Sequence record: OR924452
Length of the DNA: 64,000 bases
DNA from: Escherichia phage 241
Strand: one strand, 5' to 3'
Both the position numbers and the translations under genes were made by a program. The notes below the pieces were generated by a model that saw nothing but the letters and a program-made list of their open reading frames with translations, did not search any database and was not told the DNA's origin. Positions 44,991 through 64,000 of the stretch are shown in pieces. Position 1 is the first letter of the stretch, and each line of letters begins with the position of its first letter.

Positions 44991-45071
44991 TTAACTTCCT
45001 TAACCCCAGATTGTTATGAAGTCGGCATGCACACCTTCTTCATCTTCAGGAAGTCACACTCATTGTTCTGG

Positions 45072-45582: not shown

Positions 45583-45589
45583 ATTTAGT

Positions 45590-46261: not shown

Positions 46262-46273
46262 ATTATTCCGCCT

Positions 46274-46498: not shown

Positions 46499-46591
46499 CT
46501 GGTTTATTTAGGTGCTCCCGAGGCGGTATTTTAATCCCGCGATCCCATCTCGCCTGTCGTAGACCGGAGCATGCTGACAGTCCAACATATT

Positions 46592-46667
46592 TGGTGACCC
46601 TGGCTGGACTTGAACCAGCGACCAATCGATTATGAGTCGACTGCTCTAACCACTGAGCTACGGGGCC
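46592..46667 (-). tRNA. tRNA-Met (anticodon CAU), encoded CCA
   Basis: Hand-folded: acceptor GGCCCCG (one C-A mismatch), D-arm GCUC-AGUGGUUA-GAGC, anticodon loop CUCAUAA, T-arm GCUGG-UUCAAGU-CCAGC. Confidence 0.7.
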
Positions 46668-49785: not shown

Positions 49786-50101
49786 TTCCTGAGCCTCGTC
49801 AAATTAATTAAATGTCCCCACTATTATATTGGGAATATGTTTATTGAATATAACTCCAAGAAAGGCCAATAAAATAATGACAGCGATTATTAATAGGTAA
49901 AAACTACTTTTCTACAACATCAAGAAACTGTATCTTAACGCGGTGCCCTTCGAGTTGTGAGTGTTAACGAACAACGAGAAGCAGCCTCCATGGCTGCGGA
50001 ATGGGACTGCCTGTCAAGGCGGTGTTACGAGCGAGGGCGTCAGCCCCCTCGCGAGTATATTCGAATAAATTAACGCGCGAGAGCGTTTTGATTCCCTTTG
50101 G

Positions 50102-50108
50102 CTAAATA
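50102..50108 (+). promoter_or_regulatory. late-promoter-like CTAAATA motif ~40 nt upstream of gp6-like gene
   Basis: Same heptamer as in the tail spike leaders. Confidence 0.3.
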
Positions 50109-50148
50109 TCTTCAACACCATATTCAAACTCAGGTGATGGAGATTATC

Positions 50149-51930
50149 ATGGCCACGCAAACAGTTCCTTCACTCGACGTCAGAGCCTTTGAGTACATTA
50201 TCAAACAGCGAATGAAAGCTGATCCCACCTTTAAAGATTATGACTTTGAAGGTTCCGGTCTTAGTGCTATTATTCGTTTGTTGGCATCTGATGCGAACGC
50301 CATAGCCTTTATGCAGAACATGCTTAATGGTGAAGGCCATTTAAAAACAGCAAATCAACGTTCTAATGTTGGTTTGTCTGCTGCTTTTCTTTCTTATACC
50401 CCCGACAACTATCGGGCGGCATACATGTATGCCAACATCAAAGTAACGCCGTATGACGCCAGTACAGCTCCTAATGAGATCATTATGGACCGCCGTGTGA
50501 TGTTCGTTGGGGCGAAGGATGGGAGTTCCTACAACTTTACTGTTGAAAAACCCGTGTCTGCCACGTTGACAACAGACGGTTATTACATGTTCAACAACGT
50601 GAAACTGATTCAGGGTAACTGGTTGTACAAGACATATGATGTTGAAGGAAGCGCGATTTCGACTTATACGATACCTTCGGAAAATGTTGATATCAATCAT
50701 CTGGTCGTACAGGTACAGGAATCAGAGTCCTCTGATGTTTCAACGACATACCAGAGATACAACAGTCCGTTCGACCTGAATCAATATGCATATCTCTATT
50801 TTGTGGAATTAGGGATAGATGGCCTGTATGTGTTTGAGTTCGGAGATGGTTATCTGTCTCGCCGAGTAGAAGATGGCAACGTTATTTTCCTCCAGTATTT
50901 AGAAACTTCTGGTGCTGAAGGTAATGACATCACTAGTTTATCTTCCGCATCTTCGATAGGCGGGTTTAACCAGGTTGATATAGAATTGGTTTCCGAACGC
51001 AGTGCGGGTGGGGGAGATCCGGAATCTATTGAAGATACGAAGCGTCTGGCACCTTTGGCTTATCAGGCTGATGGCGCTGCCGTTACGGAAACCGATTACG
51101 GTGTTTTAACTGAACGCTTGTTTTCTAACGTCGCCCGTGCTAAATCATATGGCGGCGATACGCTTTCCCCTCCGGATTCTGGTTACGTTTATATCGCTGT
51201 GATACCATCTGTTGGAGAGACTCTTTCAGACGCAGAGAAGGCTGATATCGTTGCCGCGTTGGACAAATACAACGTTGGGTCCATCACCCCCAAAGTGGTA
51301 GATTCTGAGATCACATATATCCAAGTCGCCACGACTATATTTTGGGATCCGACTTCAACGGTTTATGTTGAAGAACAAATGAAAGTGGTGGTGGGCAATA
51401 GTATCACCAAATGGGGTGAAAACAATCTCGGTGGTTTTGATCAGTTATTCGACAAAGAGATATTGCAGGAAGCAATTACGAAAATGGAACGTTCCATTAA
51501 CTCAAATATCACGTCTGTCGGTTATAAACGTCATTTCAAACCTGATTATGGTGTGTTGGATAGCTTTACTTTCAGTTATGGGAGAAGCATTAAACCTGGT
51601 TCTGTGAAAATAACAGGGTTTAAACCGCTTCCGGCCGAAGTTGATTTCACTTATTATATGCGCGATGACAATGGCGATTTGAACATGTATAAAGTGAACA
51701 ACAACGACACCACTAAAGAATTTTTGGTTCAAAAGACTGGTGTTGTGGATTACGCCAACGGCGTCGTAGATCTTCAGCAGATTACGGTTTCAAACTATAA
51801 TACTGAAGGAGTAACGATCGTTGTGCTACCAGATGGCCTGAATCAGAATATACAGGCTTCACAAAACCAGGTATTCAAAATCGGTGATGTGGTTGTTACG
51901 CCAGAGGTGCGCTATGTCCAAAGATCTTAA
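50149..51930 (+). CDS. 6: baseplate wedge protein (T4 gp6-like)
   Basis: DYDFEGS and GGGDPE motifs conserved with T4 gp6; start at ATG 50149 with GGAG SD (track start 50098 is TTG). Confidence 0.7.
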   Translation: MATQTVPSLDVRAFEYIIKQRMKADPTFKDYDFEGSGLSAIIRLLASDANAIAFMQNMLNGEGHLKTANQRSNVGLSAAFLSYTPDNYRAAYMYANIKVTPYDASTAPNEIIMDRRVMFVGAKDGSSYNFTVEKPVSATLTTDGYYMFNNVKLIQGNWLYKTYDVEGSAISTYTIPSENVDINHLVVQVQESESSDVSTTYQRYNSPFDLNQYAYLYFVELGIDGLYVFEFGDGYLSRRVEDGNVIFLQYLETSGAEGNDITSLSSASSIGGFNQVDIELVSERSAGGGDPESIEDTKRLAPLAYQADGAAVTETDYGVLTERLFSNVARAKSYGGDTLSPPDSGYVYIAVIPSVGETLSDAEKADIVAALDKYNVGSITPKVVDSEITYIQVATTIFWDPTSTVYVEEQMKVVVGNSITKWGENNLGGFDQLFDKEILQEAITKMERSINSNITSVGYKRHFKPDYGVLDSFTFSYGRSIKPGSVKITGFKPLPAEVDFTYYMRDDNGDLNMYKVNNNDTTKEFLVQKTGVVDYANGVVDLQQITVSNYNTEGVTIVVLPDGLNQNIQASQNQVFKIGDVVVTPEVRYVQRS

Positions 51931-52768
51931 TAATGGTCACAATGGGGTTAAGTATGAAACCCCGTTGTTTTACCAAAACGATTTTCCTCTGTTCATCGAG
52001 TTCATGGACACGTTCTTTAATTGGCTGTATCGGCAGCAGGGCTTCACTCAAGAAGAAATTTTGGCATATCTGGCAGACACTTCGAGTTGGATGAATCCTG
52101 AGAGTGAAGATTCTCCTGTTAAACAACTCATAGATTTAAAGGCCGACAAAACGCCAGGCTCTGAAGCCAAAGATTATTTGTCAGATAAATTTTTGGTCAG
52201 AACATTTGAGAACATGATGGCTCTTGATGCCGAGACGCTGCTAGACGCTGATGGAAGGCCGTTGCTTTCTATTGAAGACAAGAACAAGCAGATAGACGAC
52301 TGGTATAATGATTTTGGGTTTCAACGAACTGTCGATAAATCATTTCAAGAATTTGGACATTTTATCCCAGTCGGTTCGGATTCTTTATTGACGGCCACGG
52401 GCGATACGTTCTCTGTTTATATTGAAGGAACTAAACGAAGAACTCTGGATCATCCGCGTTGGCTGAAATTGTTGAAACACATCTATAAAATACGTGGAAC
52501 AAAGAAAGCGATTGAATTGTTCTTTTGGATATATTTCGGTTGTCCAGTCAGCGTCTATTTTACGAAAGAAGACATAGGCGGTCTGGACGGAAATTTTGAA
52601 TGTGACGGCACGACAGGGATGCGTGATGATTACTATTATGATGAATACACTTATGTTATAGGAGTCCCAGGCGACGTATCTGATTTTGAAGGTGTGTTTG
52701 AGCGCGTCTTCCGTCAGCATTTCCATCCTGCTGGATTTACTGTATTCCTAGAAAGCACAAGGAGCTAA
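51914..52768 (+). CDS. virion structural protein, baseplate-associated (284 aa)
   Basis: Start at ATG 51914 (MSKDLNNG) with GAGGTG SD, overlapping gp6 stop. Confidence 0.4.
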   Translation: MSKDLNNGHNGVKYETPLFYQNDFPLFIEFMDTFFNWLYRQQGFTQEEILAYLADTSSWMNPESEDSPVKQLIDLKADKTPGSEAKDYLSDKFLVRTFENMMALDAETLLDADGRPLLSIEDKNKQIDDWYNDFGFQRTVDKSFQEFGHFIPVGSDSLLTATGDTFSVYIEGTKRRTLDHPRWLKLLKHIYKIRGTKKAIELFFWIYFGCPVSVYFTKEDIGGLDGNFECDGTTGMRDDYYYDEYTYVIGVPGDVSDFEGVFERVFRQHFHPAGFTVFLESTRS

Positions 52769-52770
52769 AA

Positions 52771-53961
52771 ATGGCCGATTTCCTGAGTCAATATACAGGT
52801 CAGCAGATAGATCAGATATTGGGTTCTGTTGACGACAAAGTAAGTAAAAACGACGTCATTGATGATTTTGAAGTCAGTGACCCATTGTTTCCGCCTTCTG
52901 CTCGCCTGACTTATGAGTTGAAAAGGTCTGTGGATACGATTAATGACACTCTGACCAACAAAGTTATAAGAACGGATAGTGGTGAACAGACAATCAACGG
53001 TAAGAAGACATTTAATGCGCTGTTGGTTACTAACGGGGGAATCCAAGTCCCCACTGGGAAATCTGTTTCAATCGCGGACGAACCAACCAACTCAACAGAC
53101 GGTGTCAACCTGAGTATGTTGAGGAAACATGGTGTCAGTGAAGACACCGCGCCAGATGGGTCTGGTTTGGCTGGGGAATTATTGACTTCCGGATATTACA
53201 AATTCAAACTGGATTTTAACAGATTGGCTGCGTATACGGAATTAACTCTCCCAACATCAGTTCCCGTGCAAACAGATTCTGGAGTTCGCACATGGTCAAT
53301 GACTGCATTTTTTAATGCGTTATTTGCCGACAACCGTTTTAACGGTTATGTAACGACGACCACGTATGATGCCGACATGTTGAGTCTGGAGTCTCAGCTT
53401 AACAATATCAACACGACGTTGAACGGAAAAGTCAACACGTCAACTTACAACACAAAAATGGCTTCGTTGGATTTGAGTATATCCAACATTAACACATCTT
53501 TGAGCAACAAGGTTGAGGTCAGCACATATAATACGAAGATGACTTCCTTGGACGGCAGTATCAGTTCTCTCACGACTGGTAAGGTCGATGTATCAACGTA
53601 TAATGCCAAAATGACCACAATTGATAACAGTTTGGGGAACGCTGTTTATCGCACCAAAACAAACTTGTCATCACTGACGGTATCGGCTTCTGGAACAACA
53701 GCTCTGCCAGACTTTGATTTGGTGAAACTTTGCCAGATATTGGTAACAGCACAATGGGGTACAGGAGATGTCGTAGACACATATCGAGTCACCATAACTC
53801 GAGATGGGACGATTAAGTCTGAGCTGCTGATCCAGAAAAGTACGAGCGGAACTGTGACGTTTACGGGTTCTGTAGTTGGTGGGAAACTGAGGATTTCTGT
53901 TGTCAATGCCAATACGACAACACCTTGCTCAGTCGATTATTCTATTACAGCATCTTTCTAA
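52771..53961 (+). CDS. tail fiber-like protein with internal tandem peptide repeats
   Basis: Three to four ~24-aa repeats (V.[TV]STYN.KM.S.D.S.S...) in central region; operon position between baseplate and tail spikes. Confidence 0.5.
   Translation: MADFLSQYTGQQIDQILGSVDDKVSKNDVIDDFEVSDPLFPPSARLTYELKRSVDTINDTLTNKVIRTDSGEQTINGKKTFNALLVTNGGIQVPTGKSVSIADEPTNSTDGVNLSMLRKHGVSEDTAPDGSGLAGELLTSGYYKFKLDFNRLAAYTELTLPTSVPVQTDSGVRTWSMTAFFNALFADNRFNGYVTTTTYDADMLSLESQLNNINTTLNGKVNTSTYNTKMASLDLSISNINTSLSNKVEVSTYNTKMTSLDGSISSLTTGKVDVSTYNAKMTTIDNSLGNAVYRTKTNLSSLTVSASGTTALPDFDLVKLCQILVTAQWGTGDVVDTYRVTITRDGTIKSELLIQKSTSGTVTFTGSVVGGKLRISVVNANTTTPCSVDYSITASF
53380..53650 (+). repeat. in-frame tandem repeats (~70-80 nt units) within fiber gene
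   Basis: Protein-level repeats read from the translation. Confidence 0.4.
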
Positions 53962-53963: not shown

Positions 53964-54007
53964 CTAAATACCCCTAGATGACATGAATACATTTAGGGGT
54001 ATTACAA
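53964..54007 (+). promoter_or_regulatory. conserved late leader element: CTAAATA + hairpin AATACCCCTA...TAGGGGTATT, then ATG
   Basis: One of four copies; 10-bp stem; ATG 4 nt after hairpin. Confidence 0.5.
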
Positions 54008-57000
54008 ATGGCCAACAAACCAACACAGCCTCTTTTCCCTTTGGGTTTAGAAACTTCGGAGTCTTCTAACATAAAAGGCTTCAACAACTCCGGCACCATA
54101 GAGCATTCCCCTGGTGCAATATTGACGTTCCCTGAAGATACTGATGTTGCGGGTCTTCCATCTTCTGTGCGTTACAATCCTGTTAGTGATGAATTCGAAG
54201 GTTATTACGAAAATGGCGGGTGGCTGTCTTTGGGCGGCGGTGGAATACGCTGGGAAACGCTCCCATACGCTCCCTCTAGCAATTTGTTAGAAGGGCGCGG
54301 CTATCTCATTAATAACTCCACTGGGACTTCTACGGTGGTTCTTCCTTCCCCTACGCGCGTTGGTGACTCGGTTACAATTTGTGATGCCTATGGTAAATTC
54401 GCGACGTACCCATTGACTGTATCTCCAGCGGGAAATAACCTGTACGGCTCCACCGAAGATATGACGATATCCACCGATAACGTGTCGGCGACTTTCACTT
54501 GGTCTGGTGCTGAGCAGGGTTGGGTTGTTACATCTGGTGTTGGCCTAGGTCAAGGTCGTGTGTACAGTCGAGAGATTTTCACTCAAATTTTAGCATCTGA
54601 TACAAATGAAGTGACTCTCAACATCCCTCCGACAATTGTGGACGTGTACACTGATGGGAAACGCCTTACAGAATCCAAATATTCTTTAAATGGAAACGTA
54701 ATCACTTTCGACCCTTCTTTACCTGCTGGCACTGAATTGCAGGTAATAGAATATACTCCGATTCAGTTAGGTACTGGCGGCGGGGGTTCGGGCGCTTCTG
54801 CAATCACCTGGATTTACAATGGCGGATCCGCTATCGGCGGCGAAACCGAAATAACGCTAGACATCGTTGTAGATGATGTTCCGGCTATTGATATAAACGG
54901 GTCTCGTCAGTACAAAAATCTTGGATTCACGTTCGACCCATTGACGAGTAAAATCACTCTGACGCAAGAACTGGAACCAGAAGATGAAGTTGTTGTGGTT
55001 ATAAATGGGACACCAAACATTTATAACCAGATCGATCGTTCTTTACAGGAAGTTGCTCGCGCCTACAATTTTACAAATGCTCAAGTTATTTTGAGCAACG
55101 ATTATACTTCTGCGCTGGATAATAAAGTCGTTATTTATGATACAACATCCCAACGTTCTTGGGGGATTCCATCTGGAATTCCAGCAGGTTCTACAGTGGT
55201 TTCCGTCAATGGGGATCAACTGAAATACAAAAATGGATCAACTGAAACCACTGTTACATTGGTGAGTGTACCAGGTAGTGCAGAGAAGTTGAAGAACGAT
55301 CTGGCGTCGAACTCTGGCGCGGGCATGTTGAAAACTTCTAGAGGTGATACCGTAGAAGAAGAATTGACTTTTATTAATCAGAATATGGTCGTTCAAATTT
55401 CAGATTTCGCGAGCCTTAGAACTTTAGTGCCAGCCACAGCGGGCATCCGAGTCAAATTGAAAGGTTATTATTCTGGTTCTGAAATTGGTGGCGGAGAATT
55501 CATTTCCGTCGCTGGTGATGCTGTTGATGATGCTGGGATGATTGCTCGAGTGTCAAGCAGCTTCTATTGGAAGAGAATTATCGACAAACATATTACTCCT
55601 GGTATGTATGGCATCAAAGGGAATCTTCCAGAAGATCCGGCAGTGAAACTGAACGCTATGTTTACGGCTGCGGCTGCGGCTAACGCTTATGTCTTACTGA
55701 ACGATGTCGATACTCTGGTCTGTAAAAGCCCTGTCGTGATCCCAGCACATTCATTAGTGTACGGCAACAAGCGGACCATATTGAAACGTGATGCATCGTT
55801 GTCATATGCTAATGATTTCTTGACAATTATGAATGATTCATATGTCAAGGGGATCTATGTTGATGGTAGCCGTTTAGATTCTCAGACTCCGCTAGAAGCA
55901 GTTTTGGTGCGCATCGCTGGGAATGTGACTATCCATAAGAGCGAGATCCGAAACAATGCTGGCTATGGCGTTGTTGGTAACGCAGTCCCTGGCATTCGTA
56001 TCACCAAGAACATTTTTTCCAACTTCGCCAAAGGTTGTGTGGCTATGTTTGGCGACGGAACGGCGACGAGTGATGATCTGCAAATTAATGATAACAGATT
56101 CTTTAACCTGGGCGCGGGAACCATTTATGTTGGCGGTTACTCAAACTTCCTTGTCGACAAAAACGTCGGAAGAGGCACTTACGTGGGTTCTCCAGGAAAC
56201 CGTCTGTATGTTGTGACCAATACCAACGGGACTATCACCCAAAGCGCTGGGCCAGATTTTGGGGCGCTGAAAACGGGTATGTTCTTTGTATTGCCTGGTG
56301 GTTCTGAACATATGATAACGGCAGTCAACAGCCTTACAAGTGTGACAGTAACCCCAGCGCCTCCGTCGAATGCAACGGTTCGTGCAATTGCTGGGACAGG
56401 GGATCTTCTGGGCATCCAATCATGCTCCTACGGCACCATCAGCCGTAACAACCTGACCGATTGTGTGACTTACGGAACTGGTGGAGGCACGATGGAGGGG
56501 AGCACTCTGGGGTGCAATTATGTCACTTGGGAAGACAACTTCATCCGCAACACAGGTAAGAACGGAATCAACGTCGGGCAATCAGGCGCTGGGGTCGCCA
56601 CGTGTTCAATCCTGAGGAACACTCTGATACAGGTTGGTAACGGCGGTCAGGGCGTCGGCCCAGCGTATCTTCTGCCTTGGTTCGATACGGTAGGTATTGC
56701 TCTGTATCAGGGAAATCCAGGTTATATGGCGAATATGGACGTCAGTGATAACAACGTCTCTACATGGTCTGGCGATCTGAATGACGGCGCTGCTTGGTTT
56801 GGTATGAGCGGTTGTACGGAAGCCACTGTGACTTGTACAGGCAACAAATCTTCTGGTTATTCCGACGGCTATGTTCGTGGAGATATATTAGAAGTCACGT
56901 TGACAGGTTATGGTACAGGGGCGGCTGCGACTTCATTCGTTAGTGATGGTGAGTCTATACAGATAACCGTTCAAACAGGTACTTCACCAACAGCTTCTCC

Positions 57001-57181
57001 TTATTTTTCAGTGCGGAAGGCGATCCGCACCCGCCATCAACCGATGATAACGGCGCAGATCGTCACCACAACTGGGAACATGTCTCATTGTTGGGGCATG
57101 CAATCTAGTACAGCAGGAAACTGGATGGTGGGACAGAATACAACTCCTTCAGGGGTCACGACGTATTACGCAAAAGGGTAA
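54008..57181 (+). CDS. tail spike protein with gp10-like N-terminal anchor domains and beta-helix domain (1057 aa)
   Basis: Beta-helix repeat signatures (NNAGYGVVGN..., IRNT...); N-terminal region shared with the 59448 gene. Confidence 0.6.
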   Translation: MANKPTQPLFPLGLETSESSNIKGFNNSGTIEHSPGAILTFPEDTDVAGLPSSVRYNPVSDEFEGYYENGGWLSLGGGGIRWETLPYAPSSNLLEGRGYLINNSTGTSTVVLPSPTRVGDSVTICDAYGKFATYPLTVSPAGNNLYGSTEDMTISTDNVSATFTWSGAEQGWVVTSGVGLGQGRVYSREIFTQILASDTNEVTLNIPPTIVDVYTDGKRLTESKYSLNGNVITFDPSLPAGTELQVIEYTPIQLGTGGGGSGASAITWIYNGGSAIGGETEITLDIVVDDVPAIDINGSRQYKNLGFTFDPLTSKITLTQELEPEDEVVVVINGTPNIYNQIDRSLQEVARAYNFTNAQVILSNDYTSALDNKVVIYDTTSQRSWGIPSGIPAGSTVVSVNGDQLKYKNGSTETTVTLVSVPGSAEKLKNDLASNSGAGMLKTSRGDTVEEELTFINQNMVVQISDFASLRTLVPATAGIRVKLKGYYSGSEIGGGEFISVAGDAVDDAGMIARVSSSFYWKRIIDKHITPGMYGIKGNLPEDPAVKLNAMFTAAAAANAYVLLNDVDTLVCKSPVVIPAHSLVYGNKRTILKRDASLSYANDFLTIMNDSYVKGIYVDGSRLDSQTPLEAVLVRIAGNVTIHKSEIRNNAGYGVVGNAVPGIRITKNIFSNFAKGCVAMFGDGTATSDDLQINDNRFFNLGAGTIYVGGYSNFLVDKNVGRGTYVGSPGNRLYVVTNTNGTITQSAGPDFGALKTGMFFVLPGGSEHMITAVNSLTSVTVTPAPPSNATVRAIAGTGDLLGIQSCSYGTISRNNLTDCVTYGTGGGTMEGSTLGCNYVTWEDNFIRNTGKNGINVGQSGAGVATCSILRNTLIQVGNGGQGVGPAYLLPWFDTVGIALYQGNPGYMANMDVSDNNVSTWSGDLNDGAAWFGMSGCTEATVTCTGNKSSGYSDGYVRGDILEVTLTGYGTGAAATSFVSDGESIQITVQTGTSPTASPYFSVRKAIRTRHQPMITAQIVTTTGNMSHCWGMQSSTAGNWMVGQNTTPSGVTTYYAKG

Positions 57182-57191
57182 TATTGAATGC

Positions 57192-57231
57192 CTAAATACC
57201 CCATATTGGACATCCTTTATGGGGTATTATC
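57192..57231 (+). promoter_or_regulatory. conserved late leader element: CTAAATA + hairpin ATACCCCATA...TATGGGGTAT, then ATG
   Basis: Near-identical to the 59405 copy. Confidence 0.5.
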
Positions 57232-59235
57232 ATGATTTCTCAATTCAATCAGCCACACGGCTCCACTTCAATATTTGTTAACAAACAATCTATCGCTCTG
57301 AATTTCGGTGTCACCAAAGACGAAGTTGTTTATTTCGCTGCTGGCATTGACCTTAGCGGATACAAAGTAATCTATGATGAATCGACTCAACGGGCTTATT
57401 CTCTTCCAGCTGGGATTGTTTCAGGAACTACTGCCATCAGTCTGGACGAAAAAGCCATTTTGACCCATTCGGCTGGCTCTGTTGATCTTGGAGAACTGGC
57501 TGTGCAACGCGGAGAGTTTGTTACTGTACCTGGTTCTTTTAATTTCGGCCATACCATTAATGTGAAAAATGAACTTCTTGTTCACGATGATGAAAAATAT
57601 CGATGGGATGGTTCTTTGCCAAAGGTAGTTGCCGCTGGTTCTACACCCGATAACTCAGGCGGTGTTGGCACAGGCGCGTGGGTTAGCGTTGGGGATGCGT
57701 CATTAAGGAATGAGTTAGCAAGTCCTTCAGGATCATCACTTTCAGGTCATTCAAATGGCCTTTCGGTAGCTGAAAACCTGAATAACCTCTTAGCAAAAGC
57801 ACAATTCATCACACCAGAGCAATTTTACAGCAATCATCCTGGTGAAACTGACTGGGCTGTGATGATTAACGAGGCATATTCCTATGCTCGCGATCATAAT
57901 AGTTCTGTGTTGCTTGCTAATGACTACCACACTGCGTCAACAATTGTTCACTTAGACGGTGTTACTGTTATTTGTACCGGGCGTATTATTGCATCGCCAA
58001 CAGGAACATATTCATACACCACCGCATTAGGTAATGAAGAGGAGGCTGCTTATGTAATTACTACTGAAAATGGTGTGTTTAACAATGCAAAATCTTCATC
58101 TCTTTACGGTCTAACATTGACATATACAGACAATAGAGAACCATCAGGATATACCGACCCTCACATACTAGCTAAAGGCGTTGTCATTACTGATACGGCT
58201 AATGTTTACATAAACAACCTGCAAACATTTGGGTTCTTAAATGGCGGTGTCGATGTTGGTGGAATTTCTGGTAATGGGTTTGAGATTGTAATAAATAAAT
58301 GTTTAGCCTGGATTTACGCATGGACGGATTCGGAGAAGATAGGATTCCGATGCAACGTTACAGACTCTACATTCTATGATGTCGTAACTGTAGCATATGG
58401 AATTGGAATTCATAATGTTAAAGGTGGTGGAAACGTCTATTTTAACGCGCACCCATGGGGGTATCCTTTAACCGCCGCTAATCTATACCCAAACAGACAG
58501 TGTAAAATTCAATTTCTGTTAACAGGGGGTGGCACAACTTTCTTCAGGCCGTATGCCGATACAATCACAAAATTAGACAGCAGTCAAAACGCTAGTCGGG
58601 CCAATGGTGGTGTTGGGTTTTACATCGACAACTGGAGAAATAAAATTATCGCAGCAGAGGTGGCGATACATAATGATGAGATTAGCACTGGAATGTCATT
58701 AGCTTACCTGGTAGGCGATGCCTCGCGTAATGAAATTGAATTCACAAACATAAACAACACATCGAAACTTGGGAATGAAAGAGTTTCATATGATTCAGGA
58801 TATCAAACCGCTTTATTTACAAACATTGTCAGAATTCCTGAGTATAACGCAGGTAATTTAAGCAACCTTACAGGAAGCATATCATTCAATGGTACAGGAG
58901 TTACTTCTTCTGGCACGTACAGTTTACGCAGAAGTGGTGAGTATATAGACATTCTTTTAACTATAGGAGTGACTTCAATATCAAGCCCATCCGGACCATT
59001 ATCAATCACGCTACCACGTGGTCTTGTGTGTAGATTTGGGCCATCAGCAGAGCCTGAGCAGACTTCGTGCTTTGGTAACATCAGTTCAATCAATATAGGT
59101 GTAATTGCAGTTCTAAACGGAAGCTCTATAGAGTTCTATTACAAGACAGCAAATGGGGCAAGGGTCCTTATTAATGCAGCTGGAGTATCAGTCGGGACTC
59201 TTGAGTTATTTTTAAGAGGTAAAATTTCGAATTAA
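57232..59235 (+). CDS. tail spike protein (667 aa) with conserved N-terminal head-binding module
   Basis: N-terminal ~170 aa parallel the 61724 gene (GSTS...SGYKVIYD...RAY[SA]LP...GAW[VI]S[VA]G.ASLRN.LA). Confidence 0.6.
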   Translation: MISQFNQPHGSTSIFVNKQSIALNFGVTKDEVVYFAAGIDLSGYKVIYDESTQRAYSLPAGIVSGTTAISLDEKAILTHSAGSVDLGELAVQRGEFVTVPGSFNFGHTINVKNELLVHDDEKYRWDGSLPKVVAAGSTPDNSGGVGTGAWVSVGDASLRNELASPSGSSLSGHSNGLSVAENLNNLLAKAQFITPEQFYSNHPGETDWAVMINEAYSYARDHNSSVLLANDYHTASTIVHLDGVTVICTGRIIASPTGTYSYTTALGNEEEAAYVITTENGVFNNAKSSSLYGLTLTYTDNREPSGYTDPHILAKGVVITDTANVYINNLQTFGFLNGGVDVGGISGNGFEIVINKCLAWIYAWTDSEKIGFRCNVTDSTFYDVVTVAYGIGIHNVKGGGNVYFNAHPWGYPLTAANLYPNRQCKIQFLLTGGGTTFFRPYADTITKLDSSQNASRANGGVGFYIDNWRNKIIAAEVAIHNDEISTGMSLAYLVGDASRNEIEFTNINNTSKLGNERVSYDSGYQTALFTNIVRIPEYNAGNLSNLTGSISFNGTGVTSSGTYSLRRSGEYIDILLTIGVTSISSPSGPLSITLPRGLVCRFGPSAEPEQTSCFGNISSINIGVIAVLNGSSIEFYYKTANGARVLINAAGVSVGTLELFLRGKISN

Positions 59236-59238
59236 AAT

Positions 59239-59268
59239 AACCCCGCTTCGGCGGGGTTTTGTTATTTT
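59239..59268 (+). terminator. rho-independent terminator (AACCCCGC-ttcg-GCGGGGTT + TTGTTATTTT)
   Basis: Hairpin and T-run 4 nt after stop. Confidence 0.5.
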
Positions 59269-59404
59269 CTCTTATCGTGGCATATAATTTGTTTATTCAA
59301 AGATTCTTCTAATTCAGGATGAAACCCATTTCATAAATTTTGTTGTGTAGACTATGTTAAGAGGAAGAGTATAAACATAGATAAACTCAACATATTGATA
59401 CTCA

Positions 59405-59447
59405 CTAAATACCCCATATTGGCAAATCCTTTATGGGGTATTTTCAA
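59405..59447 (+). promoter_or_regulatory. conserved late leader element: CTAAATA + hairpin ATACCCCATA...TATGGGGTAT, then ATG
   Basis: Near-identical to the 57192 copy. Confidence 0.5.
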
Positions 59448-61676
59448 ATGACCAGAAATGTAGAAGAATTATTCGGCGGCGTAGTCACAGCTCCCCACCA
59501 GATTCCTTTCACTTATAAATCAAGTGTCGGTGGAGAAACTTTCATTTCTCTACCTTTCTATCCTGTCACTGGTGTTGTCACAATTAACGGCGGCATGCAA
59601 GTTCCGTTAGACAACTTCGAGATAGACGGGAATACGTTAAACCTCGGGCGCGCATTGTCTAAAGATGACGTGGTTTATTGCCTGTTCGACAAAATCCTTT
59701 CACCAGAAGATACTTCTAAAGGCATTCGAATATACAAATTTCAAGCCGTGGGTGGGGAAACTGAATTCACGCCTGACTTTACTTCTTATGGTGTACAGTC
59801 TCTTTATATCGGTGGCGAGTACAAAACCCCAGATATAGAATATTCATACAACAGTACGACTGGGAAAGTTTCCCTACAAACTGCTCTGACTGCAGGGGTG
59901 TGGGTTGTTGCGGAGATGTCTGTTAAACAACCGAATATCAGTCCGGCGTTCGATCGCAGTATCCAAGAAATTGCCCGTTCGGCTAACGTAAAAGACTCTG
60001 AAGTCATTGTCAGCACTGATACCATATCTTTACTCGACGACAAGAAAGTTGTTTATGATTCAGCAGCGCAGGTTATTTATGGTTTACCAACTATTCCTGA
60101 TGGTTCAGTGATTTCTTCTGTATCTGATGGAAAATTGACTTATAATCCAGGTGATGTGCAGGTTGATCTGTTACCATTACCAGATTCTGCCCAGGCAGTT
60201 AAATTATTCTATTTGCAACCAAGTGGCGCAGAAAATATTAAAGTTTCCAGTGGCGACACAGTACAAGATATTCTGAATAATATCAATAAACACCGTGTTG
60301 TAAGCAGCATTTCAGAACTTTTGAATATATCTCCAACAGAAACGTCAGTTGTATTCGTGGCATCTTTCCATCCATCAACCAATTACGGGGGTGGATTCTT
60401 CCGTTGGGATCCGTCTGGAAACAAGGCAACCCACAATGGTGGTACGATTATTGATCCTGATAAAACGTTTCCGACTTGGGACAGCGCAGGTAAAACTTCT
60501 TGGTTTACCGCAAGCGGGACGGGTACTGGTGTTTGGCGTCGGCAAGACGTGATGGGTCATTACCGTGCTGAAGATTTCGGTGCACTCCCTTGGAACGTCG
60601 GGGACGCGCATGACAGTACCAAAGAATTCCAACAAGTGGCTAATGTGGCTTATCGGGGCGGTTGCTGGAGATGGACAGGTCGCCATCGCATTACGAGTTA
60701 TATCGATATCCCCAATAAACAGACTTTTGGTTCATACGCCCAAATGACTTCTGTTTATTCTGAATTATTCCAGCCTAGCAATTTCCAGGGGGTGCACGTT
60801 ATTTCTGATCCTTCTTTAGCGCGTTCTGTGCAAAATGCAGTCTTCTTTGATGCTGCGACCGGAGAAGCATTCCGTTGTGGGGAAGGTGCATCCCCGACCG
60901 ATTTTTTGGTGTACGGAAGAGGGTTTACAACTACTGGGATGGATTTGGCAACATCATTACCTTCGGCGGCGTCGTATTGTGACACCCAAGCATTCCGTCA
61001 TGGGAAGGCTATTAACGTGCGAAATGTTACTGTTGCGCTTATGAAGTACGCATTGGATTCTAATCCATGGGATGCCAGCAAAGGTGATTATTATTCCACA
61101 ACGGATCATATGACGATTTTGTATTGTTATTGCATTAGTCGTGTACCAACTGGCCAGGATATAACATTTAACACCAAGCATATCAATATGCGTGCATATG
61201 TAAACCAGATTGGCGATTATGGATTGGCAGTCCGAAATGTGGTGTTTATCGGTGGATCCATAGAAGGATATAACACTTCAACATTCTTACGATCCAGTAC
61301 TCAACTTTCTTTCAAAGGCACATATTTTGAAACGGGTGACACGTCATTCAATGGTACAGTATTCAGCCTTGTTGGTTGGTGTACTCTTAACTTTGAAGAA
61401 TGTCTTGTTTATTTGAACAACACCACAAACTTCGTGTCTTCTGGTGGTTCTGGGCAATCTGCTGGCGTCTTGGGTCTAACGATTAAATCTCAAGGTAACG
61501 TGTGGCGTAAAACTGACGCGGGGACAACCACAGTGTTTGCAGTTGACCCAGTCACTAATAAACAAGCCTTAGTTGGATCCGAAATATTGAATGCTGCGAG
61601 TGGGGCAACTATCGCATATTGGGCTGGTGCCGTCCCACCTGGCACATACACGGCTCCAATCAGTGTTGCATTTTAA
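59448..61676 (+). CDS. tail spike protein with gp10-like N-terminal anchor domains (742 aa)
   Basis: Start moved to ATG 59448 (after the leader hairpin, by analogy with 57232); N-terminal region parallels the 54008 gene. Confidence 0.6.
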   Translation: MTRNVEELFGGVVTAPHQIPFTYKSSVGGETFISLPFYPVTGVVTINGGMQVPLDNFEIDGNTLNLGRALSKDDVVYCLFDKILSPEDTSKGIRIYKFQAVGGETEFTPDFTSYGVQSLYIGGEYKTPDIEYSYNSTTGKVSLQTALTAGVWVVAEMSVKQPNISPAFDRSIQEIARSANVKDSEVIVSTDTISLLDDKKVVYDSAAQVIYGLPTIPDGSVISSVSDGKLTYNPGDVQVDLLPLPDSAQAVKLFYLQPSGAENIKVSSGDTVQDILNNINKHRVVSSISELLNISPTETSVVFVASFHPSTNYGGGFFRWDPSGNKATHNGGTIIDPDKTFPTWDSAGKTSWFTASGTGTGVWRRQDVMGHYRAEDFGALPWNVGDAHDSTKEFQQVANVAYRGGCWRWTGRHRITSYIDIPNKQTFGSYAQMTSVYSELFQPSNFQGVHVISDPSLARSVQNAVFFDAATGEAFRCGEGASPTDFLVYGRGFTTTGMDLATSLPSAASYCDTQAFRHGKAINVRNVTVALMKYALDSNPWDASKGDYYSTTDHMTILYCYCISRVPTGQDITFNTKHINMRAYVNQIGDYGLAVRNVVFIGGSIEGYNTSTFLRSSTQLSFKGTYFETGDTSFNGTVFSLVGWCTLNFEECLVYLNNTTNFVSSGGSGQSAGVLGLTIKSQGNVWRKTDAGTTTVFAVDPVTNKQALVGSEILNAASGATIAYWAGAVPPGTYTAPISVAF

Positions 61677-61679
61677 TTT

Positions 61680-61703
61680 CCCCCTCCTTCGGGAGGGTTT
61701 ATT
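61680..61703 (+). terminator. rho-independent terminator (CCCTCC-ttcg-GGAGGG + TTTATT)
   Basis: Hairpin and T-run after stop at 61676. Confidence 0.5.
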
Positions 61704-61723
61704 AGAAAAACAGGAGATTCATC

Positions 61724-64000
61724 ATGAATCCGCAATTTGCTCAACCGAAAGGTTCTACTTCAAAAGAAACGAACAAAGATAGCATCGCCCGTAAATTTGG
61801 GTGCAAAAAGTCGGAAGTCGTTTATGCCAAAGCGGGACAGTCTTTGTCTGGTTATAAAGTGATCTACGATAAGGTGTCTCAACGTGCCTACGCTCTCCCT
61901 TCTAACATTGGTGCTGTAACGGTCACCAGTTTAGTTGACGGCATCCTCACGCACTCTGGAGGCACTGTAGATTTGGGTGCGCTGGCGGTGTTGCGTGAGG
62001 AATACGTCATTCTGATAGAAAATTTCACTTCCGGATTTACGATTCGTGTCAAGAACGAAGTCGTGAGCGATGGAGTGAATTTATACCGCTGGGGTGGTGG
62101 TTTACCAAAGACTGTCAATGCTGGTGAAGATCTAGACTCCACTGGAGGGATTAGCGTGGGGGCGTGGATTAGCGCGGGCGTTGCTTCATTGAGGAACGAT
62201 CTTGCTGCTAATGATGGGTTTAAATTTATTGGGCAATGTCCAGATATAGCAACATTAAGGACAATTGAACCTGGCGTCAATGGTCAAAGAATTATATTAC
62301 GGCAACATACGGCTGGAACTGGTCTTGGCGGCGGTTCATTTAGGGCTGTAGTTGATGGCACCGGATATGAAGACGATAACGGAGTGGTTATTAAAACAAC
62401 TGGCGGTGCCGCCTGGCTACGCCTCAACGCAGATAGAGTTAATCCGTTTATGTTTGGGGCAACAGGTGGTGTGGACGACACTGTGGCTGTTCAGGCCAGC
62501 GTAGATAGTGGTCGAGCCACCGAACTAACTGCGCCATTCAACGTCACTTCCATTAAGCTGAAGAAAAAATCTGCAAGTATCTACGGGTCAGGTATGCACA
62601 TCTCAAGGCTAGTGCAAAAACCAGGGGTGGCTGGTGACTGTGTGGTTATTGAAGATACCTGCTCGCTTATTAAATTGGATAATTTCGGTATTTACGGAAC
62701 TGGTGCACAGCAAGATACTGCATTCACTGCGGGAACGCGTGGATTAGTTGTTCCAACCCCCACCGGACTTTCTACAAACTACCCATTTAACACATCAGCA
62801 GACCCACGAAGGGATTTGTGTATCAACAACGTGCATATTGCTGGGTTTGATGAGTATGGACTTAAAATCGAAAATGGAAACTTTTCAGTATCAACGACAA
62901 ACCTTCTTATTAACCACATTAATCAAGTTGGTGCGTATTGCGCAACAACAGACTGGACTTGGACAAATATCCAGATAAATACCTGTGGTAAGGAGTGTCT
63001 TGTCTTAGATGGCGCTGGCAACGCCCGTATTATTGGTGCTAAACTTATTTGGGCTAACTGGCAACCATATGCTGCTTCAGGTAGTTACCCTGGATTGAAG
63101 ATAAACAATTGTCAAAACATTACTATGAGTGCTACAGAGGTTCAGGACTGCGGTTCTGATGGCATAATCTTTAAAGACAGTTATTCTATTTCAATTTCAG
63201 GACTAAACACGAACAGAAACAGCATAAACAGCAACTACTCATATAACAACTGCGTATTTGATAGTTGCGACGTTACAATTGATGGGTTCGTTGGTCTTAA
63301 CTATTCTTCAAACTCAGGTTCGGGGATACCTTCCAGTGCCGCTAATTTTAGATTCCTGTCTTCAGATTGTACCGTAGTCGTAAACGGAAATGTAGAGTCA
63401 GAGTATCTCGGTATCTTGTTCCGTGGTGATAACAATATTATTCAGCCAACGAATTCAGACCTTAAAATAAATGGATTGATTAATTACGATAAAACAAGCA
63501 TTACATTTCAAAATGTAATGCCTTCATTCGATGGTGTTAGTACCACTCCTGTATTCGTTCCCGCCCCATCAATTATAGGCCAGGCAAACGGACTTCGTTT
63601 GTCACAAGGAAATAAAGACAAAATCAGGTATACAACATCCAGAGTTCCAGCTGGTGGCGTGTCACTATCTGCAATTCTAATACCAACAATAACTGGCGCT
63701 GAAACGTTTAATATTATTGTTCTGGGTACTGGATTTGGCTCTACCAACAATAGCCTCTACTTTCAGTTAAATGTCGACTCATCAGGAAATCAAAGCGTTG
63801 CATTACTTATCAGTGGCGATGGTCAAACACAAGTTCTTTCTGGGGTGATTCCGGATGAATTTAAGATACAAAGTGGAGTTCCGTACCATTTTGCATTGGG
63901 TGCTGCTCCTGGGAGATTCTGGTGGAGTATATTAAATATTCAAACAGGTTCACGTATAAGAAGGGCATTTAGACGTGATTACTTAAGCGCTCCATTTAAC
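61724..64000 (+). CDS. tail spike protein, 5' partial (runs off window end), beta-helix domain
   Basis: Frame open from ATG 61724 to window end; GGAG SD; N-terminus parallels the 57232 gene; absent from ORF track because no stop in window. Confidence 0.55.
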   Translation, partial: MNPQFAQPKGSTSKETNKDSIARKFGCKKSEVVYAKAGQSLSGYKVIYDKVSQRAYALPSNIGAVTVTSLVDGILTHSGGTVDLGALAVLREEYVILIENFTSGFTIRVKNEVVSDGVNLYRWGGGLPKTVNAGEDLDSTGGISVGAWISAGVASLRNDLAANDGFKFIGQCPDIATLRTIEPGVNGQRIILRQHTAGTGLGGGSFRAVVDGTGYEDDNGVVIKTTGGAAWLRLNADRVNPFMFGATGGVDDTVAVQASVDSGRATELTAPFNVTSIKLKKKSASIYGSGMHISRLVQKPGVAGDCVVIEDTCSLIKLDNFGIYGTGAQQDTAFTAGTRGLVVPTPTGLSTNYPFNTSADPRRDLCINNVHIAGFDEYGLKIENGNFSVSTTNLLINHINQVGAYCATTDWTWTNIQINTCGKECLVLDGAGNARIIGAKLIWANWQPYAASGSYPGLKINNCQNITMSATEVQDCGSDGIIFKDSYSISISGLNTNRNSINSNYSYNNCVFDSCDVTIDGFVGLNYSSNSGSGIPSSAANFRFLSSDCTVVVNGNVESEYLGILFRGDNNIIQPTNSDLKINGLINYDKTSITFQNVMPSFDGVSTTPVFVPAPSIIGQANGLRLSQGNKDKIRYTTSRVPAGGVSLSAILIPTITGAETFNIIVLGTGFGSTNNSLYFQLNVDSSGNQSVALLISGDGQTQVLSGVIPDEFKIQSGVPYHFALGAAPGRFWWSILNIQTGSRIRRAFRRDYLSAPFN

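What the first reader, a model, noticed from the sequence alone, without database searches (positions are those of the whole stretch)
54008..64000. Four consecutive tail spike genes built from two alternating N-terminal anchor types
The 54008 and 59448 proteins share a gp10-like N-terminal region; the 57232 and 61724 proteins share a different ~170-aa N-terminus. All carry beta-helix-like C-terminal domains that differ from each other. This matches the branched tail-spike complex of ViI/CBA120-type phages, in which each spike targets a different surface polysaccharide, and implies a broad or multi-serotype host range.
Basis: partly seen in the sequence, partly recalled or inferred. Interest (0 to 1): 0.5.

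Follow-up and report, generated by a model that had tools for sequence, protein, structure and literature searches.

The report
Four-spike host-recognition cluster of phage Φ241
These are the four tail spike genes of a known type of large E. coli/Salmonella phage (it matches the published phage Φ241), so the architecture is ordinary, although two of the four spikes carry sugar-cutting heads that sit at a different position in related phages.

Summary
Window 54008-64000 has four co-directional genes: tsp4 (54008-57181), tsp3 (57232-59235), tsp2 (59448-61676; longest ORF from 59433) and tsp1 (61724 onward, cut by the window end with about 67 codons missing). Order and N-termini match the CBA120 tail spike cluster of Kuttervirus phages. 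The window matches the published E. coli O157:H7 phage Φ241.

The two anchor types are real but nested. All four proteins share the D1 head domain. TSP4 and TSP2 add XD domains in front of it, and TSP3 and TSP1 add D2 behind it. All four C-termini have right-handed beta-helix support and no detectable similarity to one another in the beta-helix cores.

- TSP1's receptor-binding domain is 65% identical to the O157-specific CBA120 TSP2 domain, with all five active-site residues kept. It is the likely O157 determinant of Φ241.
- The TSP3 receptor-binding domain is a 1.7-kb low-GC replacement. Its closest relative is a siphovirus-like tailspike (89% aa), and it is about 70% identical to the O82-specific AV101 TSP2.
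- A multi-receptor host range is inferred, not shown. Only O157 dependence has been published.

This is a new member of a well-known kind, of low to moderate interest.

The parts
53964..54007 (+). CTAAATACCCC motif plus inverted repeat directly 5' of the tsp4 start codon
   Evidence: Exact motif hit; 4 copies in the window against 0.03 expected. Predicted hairpin of -19.1 kcal/mol, z -6.7. The motif is listed as a Viunalikevirus regulatory motif in PMC7283392.
54008..55021 (+). tsp4, residues 1-338: baseplate anchor domain, XD1, XD2 and XD3 (the branching platform)
   Evidence: PDB 7REJ/7RFO (CBA120 TSP4-N) matches residues 1-339 at E 2e-204. Domain limits are taken from PMC8825819. XD3 has net charge -9 and pI 4.05.
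55022..55327 (+). tsp4, residues 339-440: D1 head domain and neck; no D2 domain
   Evidence: D1 is similar to the D1 of TSP2, TSP3 and TSP1 (z 27, 11.6 and 9.6). There is no Pfam Tail_spike_N hit.
55328..57181 (+). tsp4, residues 441-1057: receptor-binding domain of the Vi01 TSP4 type; receptor unknown
   Evidence: 99.2-99.8% identical in 21 records, including Vi01, PS5, Marshall and ECML-4. Pfam Beta_helix at residues 631-719. Residues 461-540 resemble the pre-helix domain of Depo32/DpK2 and WceF.
57192..57231 (+). CTAAATACCCC motif plus inverted repeat 5' of tsp3
   Evidence: -19.5 kcal/mol, z -4.6.
57232..57711 (+). tsp3, residues 1-160: D1 and D2 head (adaptor that docks on TSP2)
   Evidence: 88% identical to CBA120 TSP3 residues 1-162. 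Matches PDB 6NW9 residues 1-164. Pfam Tail_spike_N at residues 91-155, E 1e-28. D1 is acidic, pI 4.9.
57708..59403 (+). Segment replaced relative to PS5, Marshall and Matapan: the tsp3 receptor-binding domain (residues ~160-667, stop at 59235) plus 168 nt of intergenic DNA
   Evidence: Homology to PS5 ends at 57707 and resumes at 59404. GC is 0.397 against 0.447 for the window. Window 57586-59234 is 84.3% identical in DNA to a siphovirus-like tailspike gene (L005), which gives a crossover zone of 57586-57707 inside D2. The AlphaFold2 model has pLDDT 88 and tailspike beta-helix matches.
59239..59258 (+). Intrinsic-terminator-like hairpin after tsp3, inside the replaced segment
   Evidence: 8-bp stem, 6 GC pairs, T-rich tail; -15.6 kcal/mol.
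59405..59447 (+). CTAAATACCCC motif plus inverted repeat 5' of tsp2; the ATG at 59433 lies in its 3' arm
   Evidence: -18.8 kcal/mol, z -6.0.
59448..60452 (+). tsp2 conserved N-terminal part: XD2, XD3, D1 head, neck and the start of the next domain (residues 6-340 of the ORF counted from 59433)
   Evidence: 75% identical to CBA120 TSP2 residues 1-318. XD3 is similar to TSP4 XD3 (z 10.6) and XD2 to TSP4 XD3 (z 4.7). The start at 59448 is supported by the CBA120 TSP2 start (MTRNVEE) and by phrog_24271, which matches residues 1-742 of its 742-position profile.
60453..61676 (+). tsp2 receptor-binding domain; receptor unknown
   Evidence: All 32 matching records, all Salmonella phages, are at least 90% identical; the 25 listed are 97.6-99.5%. 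Relatives at 50-72% sit on other adaptors and in Citrobacter genomes. The AlphaFold2 model has pLDDT 85 and its best fold match is the CBA120 TSP2 beta-helix.
61682..61697 (+). Terminator-like hairpin between tsp2 and tsp1; tsp1 has no CTAAATACCCC motif but has an AGGAG ribosome-binding site
   Evidence: The fold is weak (z -1.7).
61724..62194 (+). tsp1, residues 1-157: D1 and D2 head (adaptor that docks on TSP4 XD3)
   Evidence: 53% identical to the window's TSP3 N-terminus. Pfam Tail_spike_N at residues 90-152. D1 is basic, net +4 and pI 9.3, like CBA120 TSP1.
62195..64000 (+). tsp1 receptor-binding domain, residues 158-759, cut by the window end: an O157-type glycosidase module
   Evidence: Matches PDB 5W6P/6W4Q (CBA120 TSP2) at E 1e-270. 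65% identity over 603 aligned positions. D410, E472, D475, R498 and Y527 correspond to the CBA120 TSP2 residues D506, E568, D571, R594 and Y623. 100% identical in Marshall and Mooltan, 99.8% in PS5 and Matapan.

Best explanation
[quoted passage not shown] The sequence matches E. coli O157:H7 phage Φ241.

Assembly, by homology to the CBA120 model: TSP4 trimers anchor to the baseplate through their N-terminal anchor domain. TSP4 XD2 binds XD2 of TSP2. The acidic XD3 of TSP4 docks the basic D1 head of TSP1. XD3 of TSP2 docks TSP3.

Each protein ends in a different trimeric right-handed beta-helix that binds, and probably cleaves, a different surface polysaccharide.

In this phage the O157 O-antigen, the receptor shown by experiment, is most likely recognised by TSP1. 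Its receptor-binding domain belongs to the same glycosidase family as the O157-specific CBA120 TSP2. TSP3 carries a receptor-binding domain captured by recombination inside the shared D2/neck region from a tailspike lineage found in siphovirus-like and prophage contexts. That domain is related to the O82-specific AV101 TSP2. The receptors of TSP4 and TSP2 are unknown.

Shown here: gene order, module homologies, fold support, conserved catalytic residues, recombination breakpoints. Inferred: physical assembly, enzymatic activity and all receptor assignments.
For: Identity of the phage:
- TSP3 is 100% identical to 'tail protein [Escherichia phage 241]', on a 157,291-nt contig. That is the genome length given in the Φ241 announcement.
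- The same three tRNAs (Ile, Tyr, Met) are present.

Architecture:
- Gene order matches CBA120 orf213 to orf210.
- N-terminal modules match their CBA120 counterparts.
- Pfam Tail_spike_N occurs only in TSP3 and TSP1, and D1 is shared by all four.
- Charge complementarity fits the docking model (model in PMC8825819 and PMC11721090).
- All four C-termini have beta-helix support.

O157 assignment to TSP1:
- Φ241 lyses O157 strains, not O-antigen-negative per mutants, and lyses the complemented strain (PMC4330901).
- The phage has no CBA120-type TSP2. The only O157-type module is in TSP1: 65% identical, with all five active-site residues conserved.
- Relatives at 50-80% identity sit in an E. coli P22-like prophage tailspike, in proteins named for E. 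coli O157, S. Matopeni and Citrobacter sedlakii, and in two E. coli O157:H7 genomes. The active-site residues are kept across that family with two exceptions, an E-to-D and a Y-to-P change in one sequence each.
- Salmonella group N shares the O157 epitope (PMC5628784).

TSP3 domain capture:
- Breakpoints, low GC and a terminator carried within the replaced segment.
- 89% aa and 84% nt identity to a tailspike next to tape-measure and GpJ-like genes and an acyltransferase gene.
- About 70% identity to AV101 TSP2, which recognises E. coli O82.
Against: - No experiment links any single spike of this phage to a receptor.
- At 65% (TSP1) and about 70% (TSP3) identity, specificity may differ from the characterised relatives. 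Both values lie below the 75% subtype cut-off of Sørensen et al. 2021.
- Φ241 was published as O157-specific, so the other three spikes have no demonstrated host.
- In phage SPTD1, TSP1 and TSP4 were not needed for any known host (PMC9965104).
- A 2025 paper attributes O157 binding in another Kuttervirus to a P22-like TSP3-type protein (PMC12724128), so the O157 determinant is not always of the CBA120 TSP2 type.
- tsp1 is incomplete in the window.
Confidence: 0.88

Rival explanations
1. The cluster has the branched architecture, but the phage is in practice monovalent. Only the O157-recognising spike is used. The other receptor-binding domains are kept mainly because TSP4 and TSP2 are needed as scaffolds, or they target hosts the phage cannot otherwise replicate in.
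For: Φ241 lysed all O157:H7 strains and none of 18 non-O157 E. coli. In SPTD1, TSP1 and TSP4 contributed to no known host. The specificity of EP75 TSP4 also remained elusive.
Against: All four ORFs are intact (the tsp1 ORF is open as far as the window runs). The receptor-binding domains of TSP4 and TSP2 are conserved at 97-99.8% in the listed phages, which suggests selection. The Φ241 panel held no Salmonella, Citrobacter or O82 strain. PS5, which shares three of the four spikes, is cited as a polyvalent phage controlling both Salmonella and O157:H7 (title of reference 60 in PMC8432352).
Confidence: 0.25
2. O157 recognition in this phage is carried by a spike other than TSP1, for example TSP3 or TSP4. 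The TSP1 domain, at only 65% identity to CBA120 TSP2, would target a related but different antigen such as Salmonella O30 variants or Citrobacter.
For: 65% identity is below the 75% subtype rule. Relatives of the module occur in Salmonella and Citrobacter. One report assigns O157 binding to a TSP3-type protein in phage GSP004.
Against: All five active-site residues are conserved. The TSP3 domain here is not P22-like, unlike GSP004 ORF208. Phages that share TSP1 with this window include PS5, which is cited as active against O157:H7 and is not listed among the TSP2-1 phages. Salmonella group N shares the O157 epitope, and a cited title calls the O157 antigen identical to Salmonella O30-1.
Confidence: 0.1
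3. The shared N-terminal regions are chance or low-complexity similarity, and the genes are unrelated tail fibres rather than a spike complex.
For: None found. NCBIfam gave no hits for any of the four proteins.
Against: E-values of 1e-30 to 1e-204 to each other and to solved CBA120 chains. Shuffle z-scores reach 41. Fold predictions give beta-helices.
Confidence: 0.01

Closest known systems
Escherichia phage CBA120 TSP1-4 (orf210-213), the structural paradigm of the Kuttervirus branched tail spike complex
   Same: Same gene order and same N-terminal assembly modules: TSP4-N at E 2e-204, TSP3 N-terminus 88%, TSP2 N-terminus 75%, TSP1 N-terminus 53%. Same charge pattern and a beta-helix receptor-binding domain on each protein.
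   Different: None of the four receptor-binding domains sits at the same position. The O157-type module is on TSP1 here and on TSP2 in CBA120, at 65% identity. TSP4 here lacks the D2 head domain that CBA120 TSP4 has.
Salmonella phages PS5, Marshall, Mooltan and Matapan (Kuttervirus)
   Same: 96.8-97.3% DNA identity over 82-83% of the region. The receptor-binding domains of TSP4, TSP2 and TSP1 are 99-100% identical.
   Different: Their TSP3 is the TSP3-1 subtype (Salmonella O:4/O:9; 698 aa in PS5). Here residues ~160-667 and the downstream intergenic DNA are replaced by a different module.
Agtrevirus AV101 TSP2 (WJJ54143.1), which recognises E. coli O82; also Salmonella phage vB_SenAc-pSC20 and Escherichia phage A221
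   Same: Their receptor-binding domain is homologous to the window's TSP3 domain over its full length, at 70-76% identity.
   Different: In those phages the module rides on a TSP2 scaffold (XD2-XD3-D1), whereas here it rides on a TSP3 scaffold (D1-D2). The identity is at or below the 75% subtype cut-off. The closest relative (89%) is in a siphovirus-like contig, not in an Ackermannviridae phage.
Salmonella phage Vi01 (ViI) TSP4 ('probable tail fibre, hemolysin-type calcium-binding protein')
   Same: The TSP4 receptor-binding domain is 99.7% identical.
   Different: Vi01 aligns with only 47% of the region. One of its other spikes is annotated 'Vi maturation-adhesion tail spike'.
T4 gp10, and the gp63.1/gp66 pair of phage G7C (branching adaptor proteins)
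   Same: The XD1-XD3 folds and the principle that XD2 and XD3 trimers dock other trimeric fibres, according to the CBA120 TSP4-N structure (PMC8825819). The G7C gp66 N-terminal domain is the Pfam Tail_spike_N family found in TSP3 and TSP1.
   Different: No sequence-level match to T4 gp10 was obtained here. T4 gp10 binds gp11 and gp12, not enzymatic spikes.

Membership tests
Kuttervirus/Ackermannviridae branched TSP1-4 cluster (CBA120 paradigm) | Tandem tsp genes directly downstream of baseplate wedge genes | tested here: met
   ORFs 50098-51930 (gp6-like domains) and 51884-52768 (Pfam Baseplate_wedge, E 6e-154) precede the cluster. The layout is the same in PS5.
Kuttervirus/Ackermannviridae branched TSP1-4 cluster (CBA120 paradigm) | vriC gene immediately after tsp1 | tested here: inconclusive
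   The window ends inside tsp1. In PS5 and CBA120 the VrlC/orf209 gene follows.
Kuttervirus/Ackermannviridae branched TSP1-4 cluster (CBA120 paradigm) | TSP4 with an N-terminal anchor domain plus XD1, XD2 and XD3 | tested here: met
   Residues 1-339 match PDB 7REJ at E 2.4e-204. The linker sequences GLGQGRVYSR and TPIQLG... are present.
Kuttervirus/Ackermannviridae branched TSP1-4 cluster (CBA120 paradigm) | TSP2 with N-terminal XD2 and XD3 followed by a D1-only head | tested here: met
   Residues 6-340 match 6W4Q residues 1-318 at E 1.7e-149 and 75% identity. No Tail_spike_N (D2) hit.
Kuttervirus/Ackermannviridae branched TSP1-4 cluster (CBA120 paradigm) | TSP1 and TSP3 with a short D1-D2 head and no XD domains | tested here: met
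   Pfam Tail_spike_N in both. Both match PDB 6NW9 and 4OJ5 N-termini. They are 53% identical to each other.
Kuttervirus/Ackermannviridae branched TSP1-4 cluster (CBA120 paradigm) | Electrostatic complementarity between the TSP1 head (basic) and TSP4 XD3 (acidic) | tested here: met
   TSP1 D1 has net charge +4 and pI 9.3. TSP3 D1 has net -4 and pI 4.9. TSP4 XD3 has net -9 and pI 4.05. The signs match those in CBA120.
Kuttervirus/Ackermannviridae branched TSP1-4 cluster (CBA120 paradigm) | Each TSP ends in a trimeric right-handed beta-helix receptor-binding domain | tested here: met
   Pfam Beta_helix in TSP4. AlphaFold2 plus Foldseek for TSP3 and TSP2. 65% identity to the solved 5W6P for TSP1. 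Monomer models only, so trimer formation was not tested.
Kuttervirus/Ackermannviridae branched TSP1-4 cluster (CBA120 paradigm) | Physical assembly of the four proteins into one baseplate-attached complex | not testable with these tools
   Requires ultracentrifugation, pull-down or electron microscopy. Known only for CBA120.
T4 gp10-like XD domains | Structural similarity of XD1-XD3 to T4 gp10 (or gp9) | tested here: inconclusive
TSP2-1 subtype (O157-specific receptor-binding domain, Sørensen et al. 2021) | At least 75% identity to CBA120 TSP2, on a TSP2 scaffold | tested here: not met
   65% identity over 603 aligned positions, and the module sits on a TSP1 scaffold. It is therefore not a member of that subtype, although it belongs to the same enzyme family.
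CBA120 TSP2-type O157 glycosidase module | Catalytic Asp506 and Asp571, the alternative pair Glu568/Tyr623, and Arg594 | tested here: met
   D410, D475, E472, Y527 and R498 align to them in identical local motifs (ATTDWTW, EVQDCG, NTNRN, GLNY). They are conserved in 17 of 19 relatives; one has E-to-D and one has Y-to-P.
AV101 TSP2-type (E. coli O82) receptor-binding domain | At least 75% identity to the characterised O82-specific protein | tested here: not met
   70-71% identity over 97-100% of the domain. O82 specificity is a lead, not an assignment.

The most novel reading that the evidence does not exclude
Both head-only spikes of Φ241 (TSP1 and TSP3) carry receptor-binding domains that sit on the TSP2 scaffold in every other Ackermannviridae relative found. 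Their nearest relatives outside near-identical phages are a P22-like E. coli prophage tailspike (80%) and a siphovirus-like tailspike (89%). This would mean three things. Receptor-binding domains move among all four positions, including TSP2, which the 2021 subtype survey did not list. They are captured directly from temperate phages at the D2/neck junction. And the phage published as O157-specific uses TSP1 for O157 and has at least one further host type of the O82 kind still to be found.
Probability: 0.5. Interest if true: 0.35.

Novelty: new member of a known kind. Interest (0 to 1): 0.25.

Why it matters
The architecture is textbook for Kuttervirus phages, so the finding mainly confirms a correct reading of raw sequence.

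The practical value is specific. Φ241 is proposed as a food-safety biocontrol agent on the grounds that it is O157-specific. Its genome nevertheless encodes three more intact spikes, so its true host range and off-target activity should be tested.

The cluster also gives a natural example of the module-swap junctions (D2/neck) that engineers now use to retarget these phages. It extends the recorded cases of a receptor-binding domain shared between spike positions to the TSP2 position.

Tried and rejected
- Looking up the contig that encodes the Φ241 TSP3 protein (P0001) found nothing on record. The end of tsp1 and the vriC gene could therefore not be read from the same genome, and PS5 and Marshall were used as proxies.
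- The supplement of the TSP subtype paper held no phage table, so subtype numbers for the Marshall-type TSP1, TSP2 and TSP4 could not be obtained.
- NCBIfam gave no hits for any of the four proteins.
- The 168-nt intergenic stretch 59236-59403 matched nothing in the phage collection apart from its terminator hairpin, and nothing in the siphovirus-like locus. Its origin is unexplained.
- I asked whether the TSP2 domain equals the Citrobacter sedlakii-specific SPTD1 TSP2. It does not: that subtype occurs in a different set of phages (Chennai, Sh19, SE14, PM10).
- I asked whether the ORF start at 59433 is real. It is probably not, because that ATG lies inside the conserved hairpin arm, and CBA120 and the PHROG family start at the equivalent of 59448.
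- Searching complete E. coli genomes with tsp1 DNA gave only two partial hits, both in O157:H7 strains. This is too little to name a donor.
- Sigma-70 promoter-like sites are no more frequent than in shuffled sequence (20 found, 22.3 expected), so nothing was built on them.

Full report
**What is there.** Between 54008 and the end of the window lie four co-directional ORFs:
- A: 54008-57181, 1057 aa.
- B: 57232-59235, 667 aa.
- C: 59433-61676, 747 aa.
- D: 61724 to 64000, 759 aa read with no stop.

Over the 82-83% of the region that aligns, it is 96.8-97.3% identical to the Kuttervirus phages PS5, Matapan, Mooltan and Marshall. In PS5 the fourth gene is 826 aa and is followed by the VrlC gene. 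About 67 codons of D therefore lie beyond the window. Upstream are gp6-like and baseplate-wedge genes.

**Which phage.** B is 100% identical to 'tail protein [Escherichia phage 241]', found on a 157,291-nt contig. That is exactly the genome length published for E. coli O157:H7 phage Φ241 (OR924452). The announcement also lists the three tRNAs seen in the window at 45069-46667: Ile, Tyr and Met. The window therefore matches Φ241, a Kuttervirus whose announcement contains no tail spike analysis.

**The observation.** B and D share 53% identity over residues 1-173 (E 6e-47). A and C share 35% identity over A275-498 / C105-323 (E 8e-31). Both similarities are far beyond chance.

The picture needs one refinement, from segment-wise alignment with shuffling controls:
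- The D1 head domain is shared by all four proteins (z 8.8 to 41.7).
- XD3 is shared by A and C (z 10.6).
- XD2 of C resembles XD3 of A (z 4.7).
- The anchor domain, XD1 and XD2 of A have no detectable counterpart in C.
- The D2 domain (Pfam Tail_spike_N) occurs only in B and D.

The two anchor types are therefore nested:
- TSP4 (A): AD-XD1-XD2-XD3-D1.
- TSP2 (C): XD2-XD3-D1.
- TSP3 (B) and TSP1 (D): D1-D2.

**Match to the CBA120 complex.** Each N-terminus matches its CBA120 counterpart:
- A residues 1-339 match the TSP4-N crystal chain 7REJ (E 2e-204).
- B residues 1-162 are 88% identical to TSP3.
- C residues 6-340 are 75% identical to TSP2.
- D residues 1-182 are 53% identical to TSP1.

The gene order is that of CBA120: orf213, 212, 211, 210. 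Published work on CBA120 shows that TSP4 anchors to the baseplate and binds TSP2 through XD2. The acidic XD3 of TSP4 docks the basic head of TSP1. [quoted passage not shown]

The same charge pattern is present here. D1 of D has pI 9.3, D1 of B has pI 4.9, and XD3 of A has pI 4.05. The fold similarity of the XD domains to T4 gp10 is taken from that crystal structure. It was not reproduced here by sequence.

**C-terminal domains.**
- A has a Pfam Beta_helix hit above the curated threshold. It also has a pre-helix domain like those of Depo32 and WceF.
- B and C had no PDB or Pfam sequence match, so both were modelled with alignments of homologues.
- The B model (pLDDT 88.3) is closest to the Det7 gp208, AS12, Sf6, HK620 and P22 tailspikes.
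- The C model (pLDDT 85.2) is closest to CBA120 TSP2 and other beta-helix depolymerases.
- D is 65% identical over 603 aligned positions to the solved CBA120 TSP2 body.

No significant similarity links the four beta-helices to one another.

**TSP1 carries an O157-type module.** In CBA120 the O157-specific enzyme is TSP2. Here its homologue sits behind a TSP1 head, joined at the neck (D residue 158 corresponds to CBA120 TSP2 residue 253). Catalytic Asp506 and Asp571, the alternative pair Glu568/Tyr623, and Arg594 (PMC7506556) all align with identical residues in identical local motifs: D410, D475, E472, Y527 and R498.

This TSP1 is 99.8-100% identical in Marshall, Mooltan, PS5 and Matapan. More distant relatives are:
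- an E. coli P22-type prophage tailspike, 80%;
- Kuttervirus TSP2-1, 65%;
- a protein named for E. coli O157, 55%;
- a tailspike from Salmonella serovar Matopeni, 51%;
- a protein from Citrobacter sedlakii, 50%.

The active-site residues are kept in 17 of those 19 relatives; one sequence has E-to-D and another Y-to-P. A DNA search of complete E. coli genomes hit only two O157:H7 strains.

E. coli O157 shares its O epitope with Salmonella group N (PMC5628784). That S. Matopeni belongs to O:30, and that C. sedlakii cross-reacts with O157, comes from my own knowledge.

Φ241 needs the O157 antigen. Mutants in per are resistant and the complemented strain is sensitive (PMC4330901). Since the phage has no CBA120-type TSP2, TSP1 is the most likely O157 determinant. 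This is an inference, and I put it at about 0.8.

**TSP3 carries a replaced module.** Homology to PS5 stops at 57707 (residue ~159, at the end of D2 and start of the neck) and resumes at 59404. The 1.7-kb segment between has GC 0.397 against 0.447 for the window and holds a terminator of its own.

In the phage collection its best matches are 76% (pSC20) and 71% (AV101 TSP2). AV101 TSP2 was shown to recognise E. coli O82 (PMC10791037).

In the large protein collection the closest relative is 89% identical. It lies next to tape-measure, DUF1833 and GpJ-like genes and an acyltransferase gene, which is a siphovirus-like and possibly temperate context. At the DNA level that gene is 84% identical over window 57586-59234. 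This overlaps the end of the PS5 homology, so the crossover lies within 57586-57707 in D2.

In the Ackermannviridae relatives (pSC20, A221, AV101 and two metagenomic proteins) this module is on a TSP2 scaffold. One metagenomic protein has it on a D1-D2 scaffold.

**TSP4 and TSP2 modules.** The TSP4 receptor-binding domain is the Vi01 type, 99.2-99.8% identical in 21 records. The TSP2 domain occurs in 32 Salmonella phage records, all at least 90% identical and 97.6-99.5% in those listed, with 50-72% relatives on P22-type, T7-type and Tail_spike_N adaptors and in Citrobacter. I found no receptor assignment for either.

**Comparison with what is known.** The branched complex, the modular exchange of receptor-binding domains and the use of subtypes to predict hosts are all established (PMC8432352; PMC9965104). 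That survey listed domain sharing only between TSP1/TSP3 and TSP4. It also found the TSP2 head dissimilar to the heads of the other spikes. Here two modules that sit on TSP2 elsewhere are on TSP1 and TSP3, joined at the D2/neck region. I found no paper describing this for the Marshall/PS5/Φ241 group, but the literature access is incomplete. It is an incremental extension, not a new kind of system.

**Host range.** The inference of several receptors is reasonable. All ORFs are intact (tsp1 as far as the window runs), the modules are strongly conserved, and PS5 is cited as polyvalent. It remains untested for Φ241, whose published panel held only E. coli of 11 named non-O157 O-groups plus five non-O157 strains that were not fully serotyped, with no Salmonella and no O82.

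**Regulatory context.** The motif CTAAATACCCC is listed in the literature as a Viunalikevirus motif. It occurs four times in the window against 0.03 expected. Three copies lie directly before tsp4, tsp3 and tsp2. Each is the 5' arm of a strong inverted repeat whose 3' arm, GGGGTAT, ends 3-7 nt before the start codon (-19 kcal/mol). tsp1 lacks the motif and follows a terminator-like hairpin.

**Verdict.** The region is a new member of a well-known kind, with two modest additions: an O157-type module on TSP1 and a captured module on TSP3. Interest is low to moderate.

Noticed in passing
window 53964-54007, 57192-57231, 59405-59447 (+) and 42006-41970 (-): All four exact copies of the motif CTAAATACCCC are the 5' arm of a strong inverted repeat (about -19 kcal/mol for the three that were folded). 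The 3' arm, GGGGTAT, ends 3-7 nt before an ATG, so the only G-rich candidate ribosome-binding site lies inside the stem. The stems differ between copies but stay paired. It is not settled whether this is a late promoter, a protein-binding palindrome or a translational switch.
   Followed up: partly
window 59433 versus 59448: The longest ORF for tsp2 starts at 59433, and PS5 is annotated that way. That ATG lies inside the hairpin arm (ATGGGGTATT). CBA120 TSP2 and phrog_24271 (742 positions) both start at the equivalent of 59448, so the public annotation of this gene in several phages is probably five codons too long.
   Followed up: yes
window 45731-46273; ORF 45827-46261 (-): In the tRNA cluster, 543 nt replace the 185 nt that hold tRNA-Asn in PS5. 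The new DNA encodes a 144-aa PD-(D/E)XK endonuclease (Pfam PF11645, E 1.6e-25). This looks like a mobile endonuclease gene that displaced a tRNA, and it explains why this phage has three tRNAs where PS5 has four.
   Followed up: partly
window 7909-8306; ORF 7904-8308 (-): A 398-nt insertion relative to PS5, next to the dCMP deaminase gene. It encodes a 134-aa protein of unknown function (phrog_13393; no Pfam hit).
   Followed up: partly
window 59236-59403: The intergenic DNA that came with the replaced tsp3 module matches nothing in the phage collection beyond its terminator hairpin, and nothing in the siphovirus-like relative. It makes the tsp3-tsp2 gap 197 nt, against 100 nt in PS5. A sigma-70-like site (TTGTTA, 18-nt spacer, TATAAT) lies at 59259-59288.
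   Followed up: partly
window 31230-32732: A patch only 83% identical to PS5, inside a region that is otherwise 92-99.6% identical. It is flanked by small indels and is probably another recombination mosaic.
   Followed up: no
locus L005 6001-9046: The closest relative of the tsp3 module is a 639-aa tailspike at the end of a siphovirus-like tail gene row. An Acyl_transf_3 gene follows it on the opposite strand. This arrangement is typical of temperate phages that modify the O-antigen they recognise.
   Followed up: no
window 52771-53961 (+): The 396-aa gene directly upstream of tsp4 is annotated 'putative tail fiber protein' in PS5. It has only a PHROG of unknown function and a sub-threshold BppL_N hit. 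It may be the baseplate partner of the TSP4 anchor domain.
   Followed up: no
proteins P0039-P0111: The precomputed Pfam family PF27114 marks the receptor-binding domains of both the tsp2-type and the tsp1-type modules. It is absent from the local Pfam copy, which gave no hit for TSP2. The two modules may share a domain that the searches here could not name.
   Followed up: no
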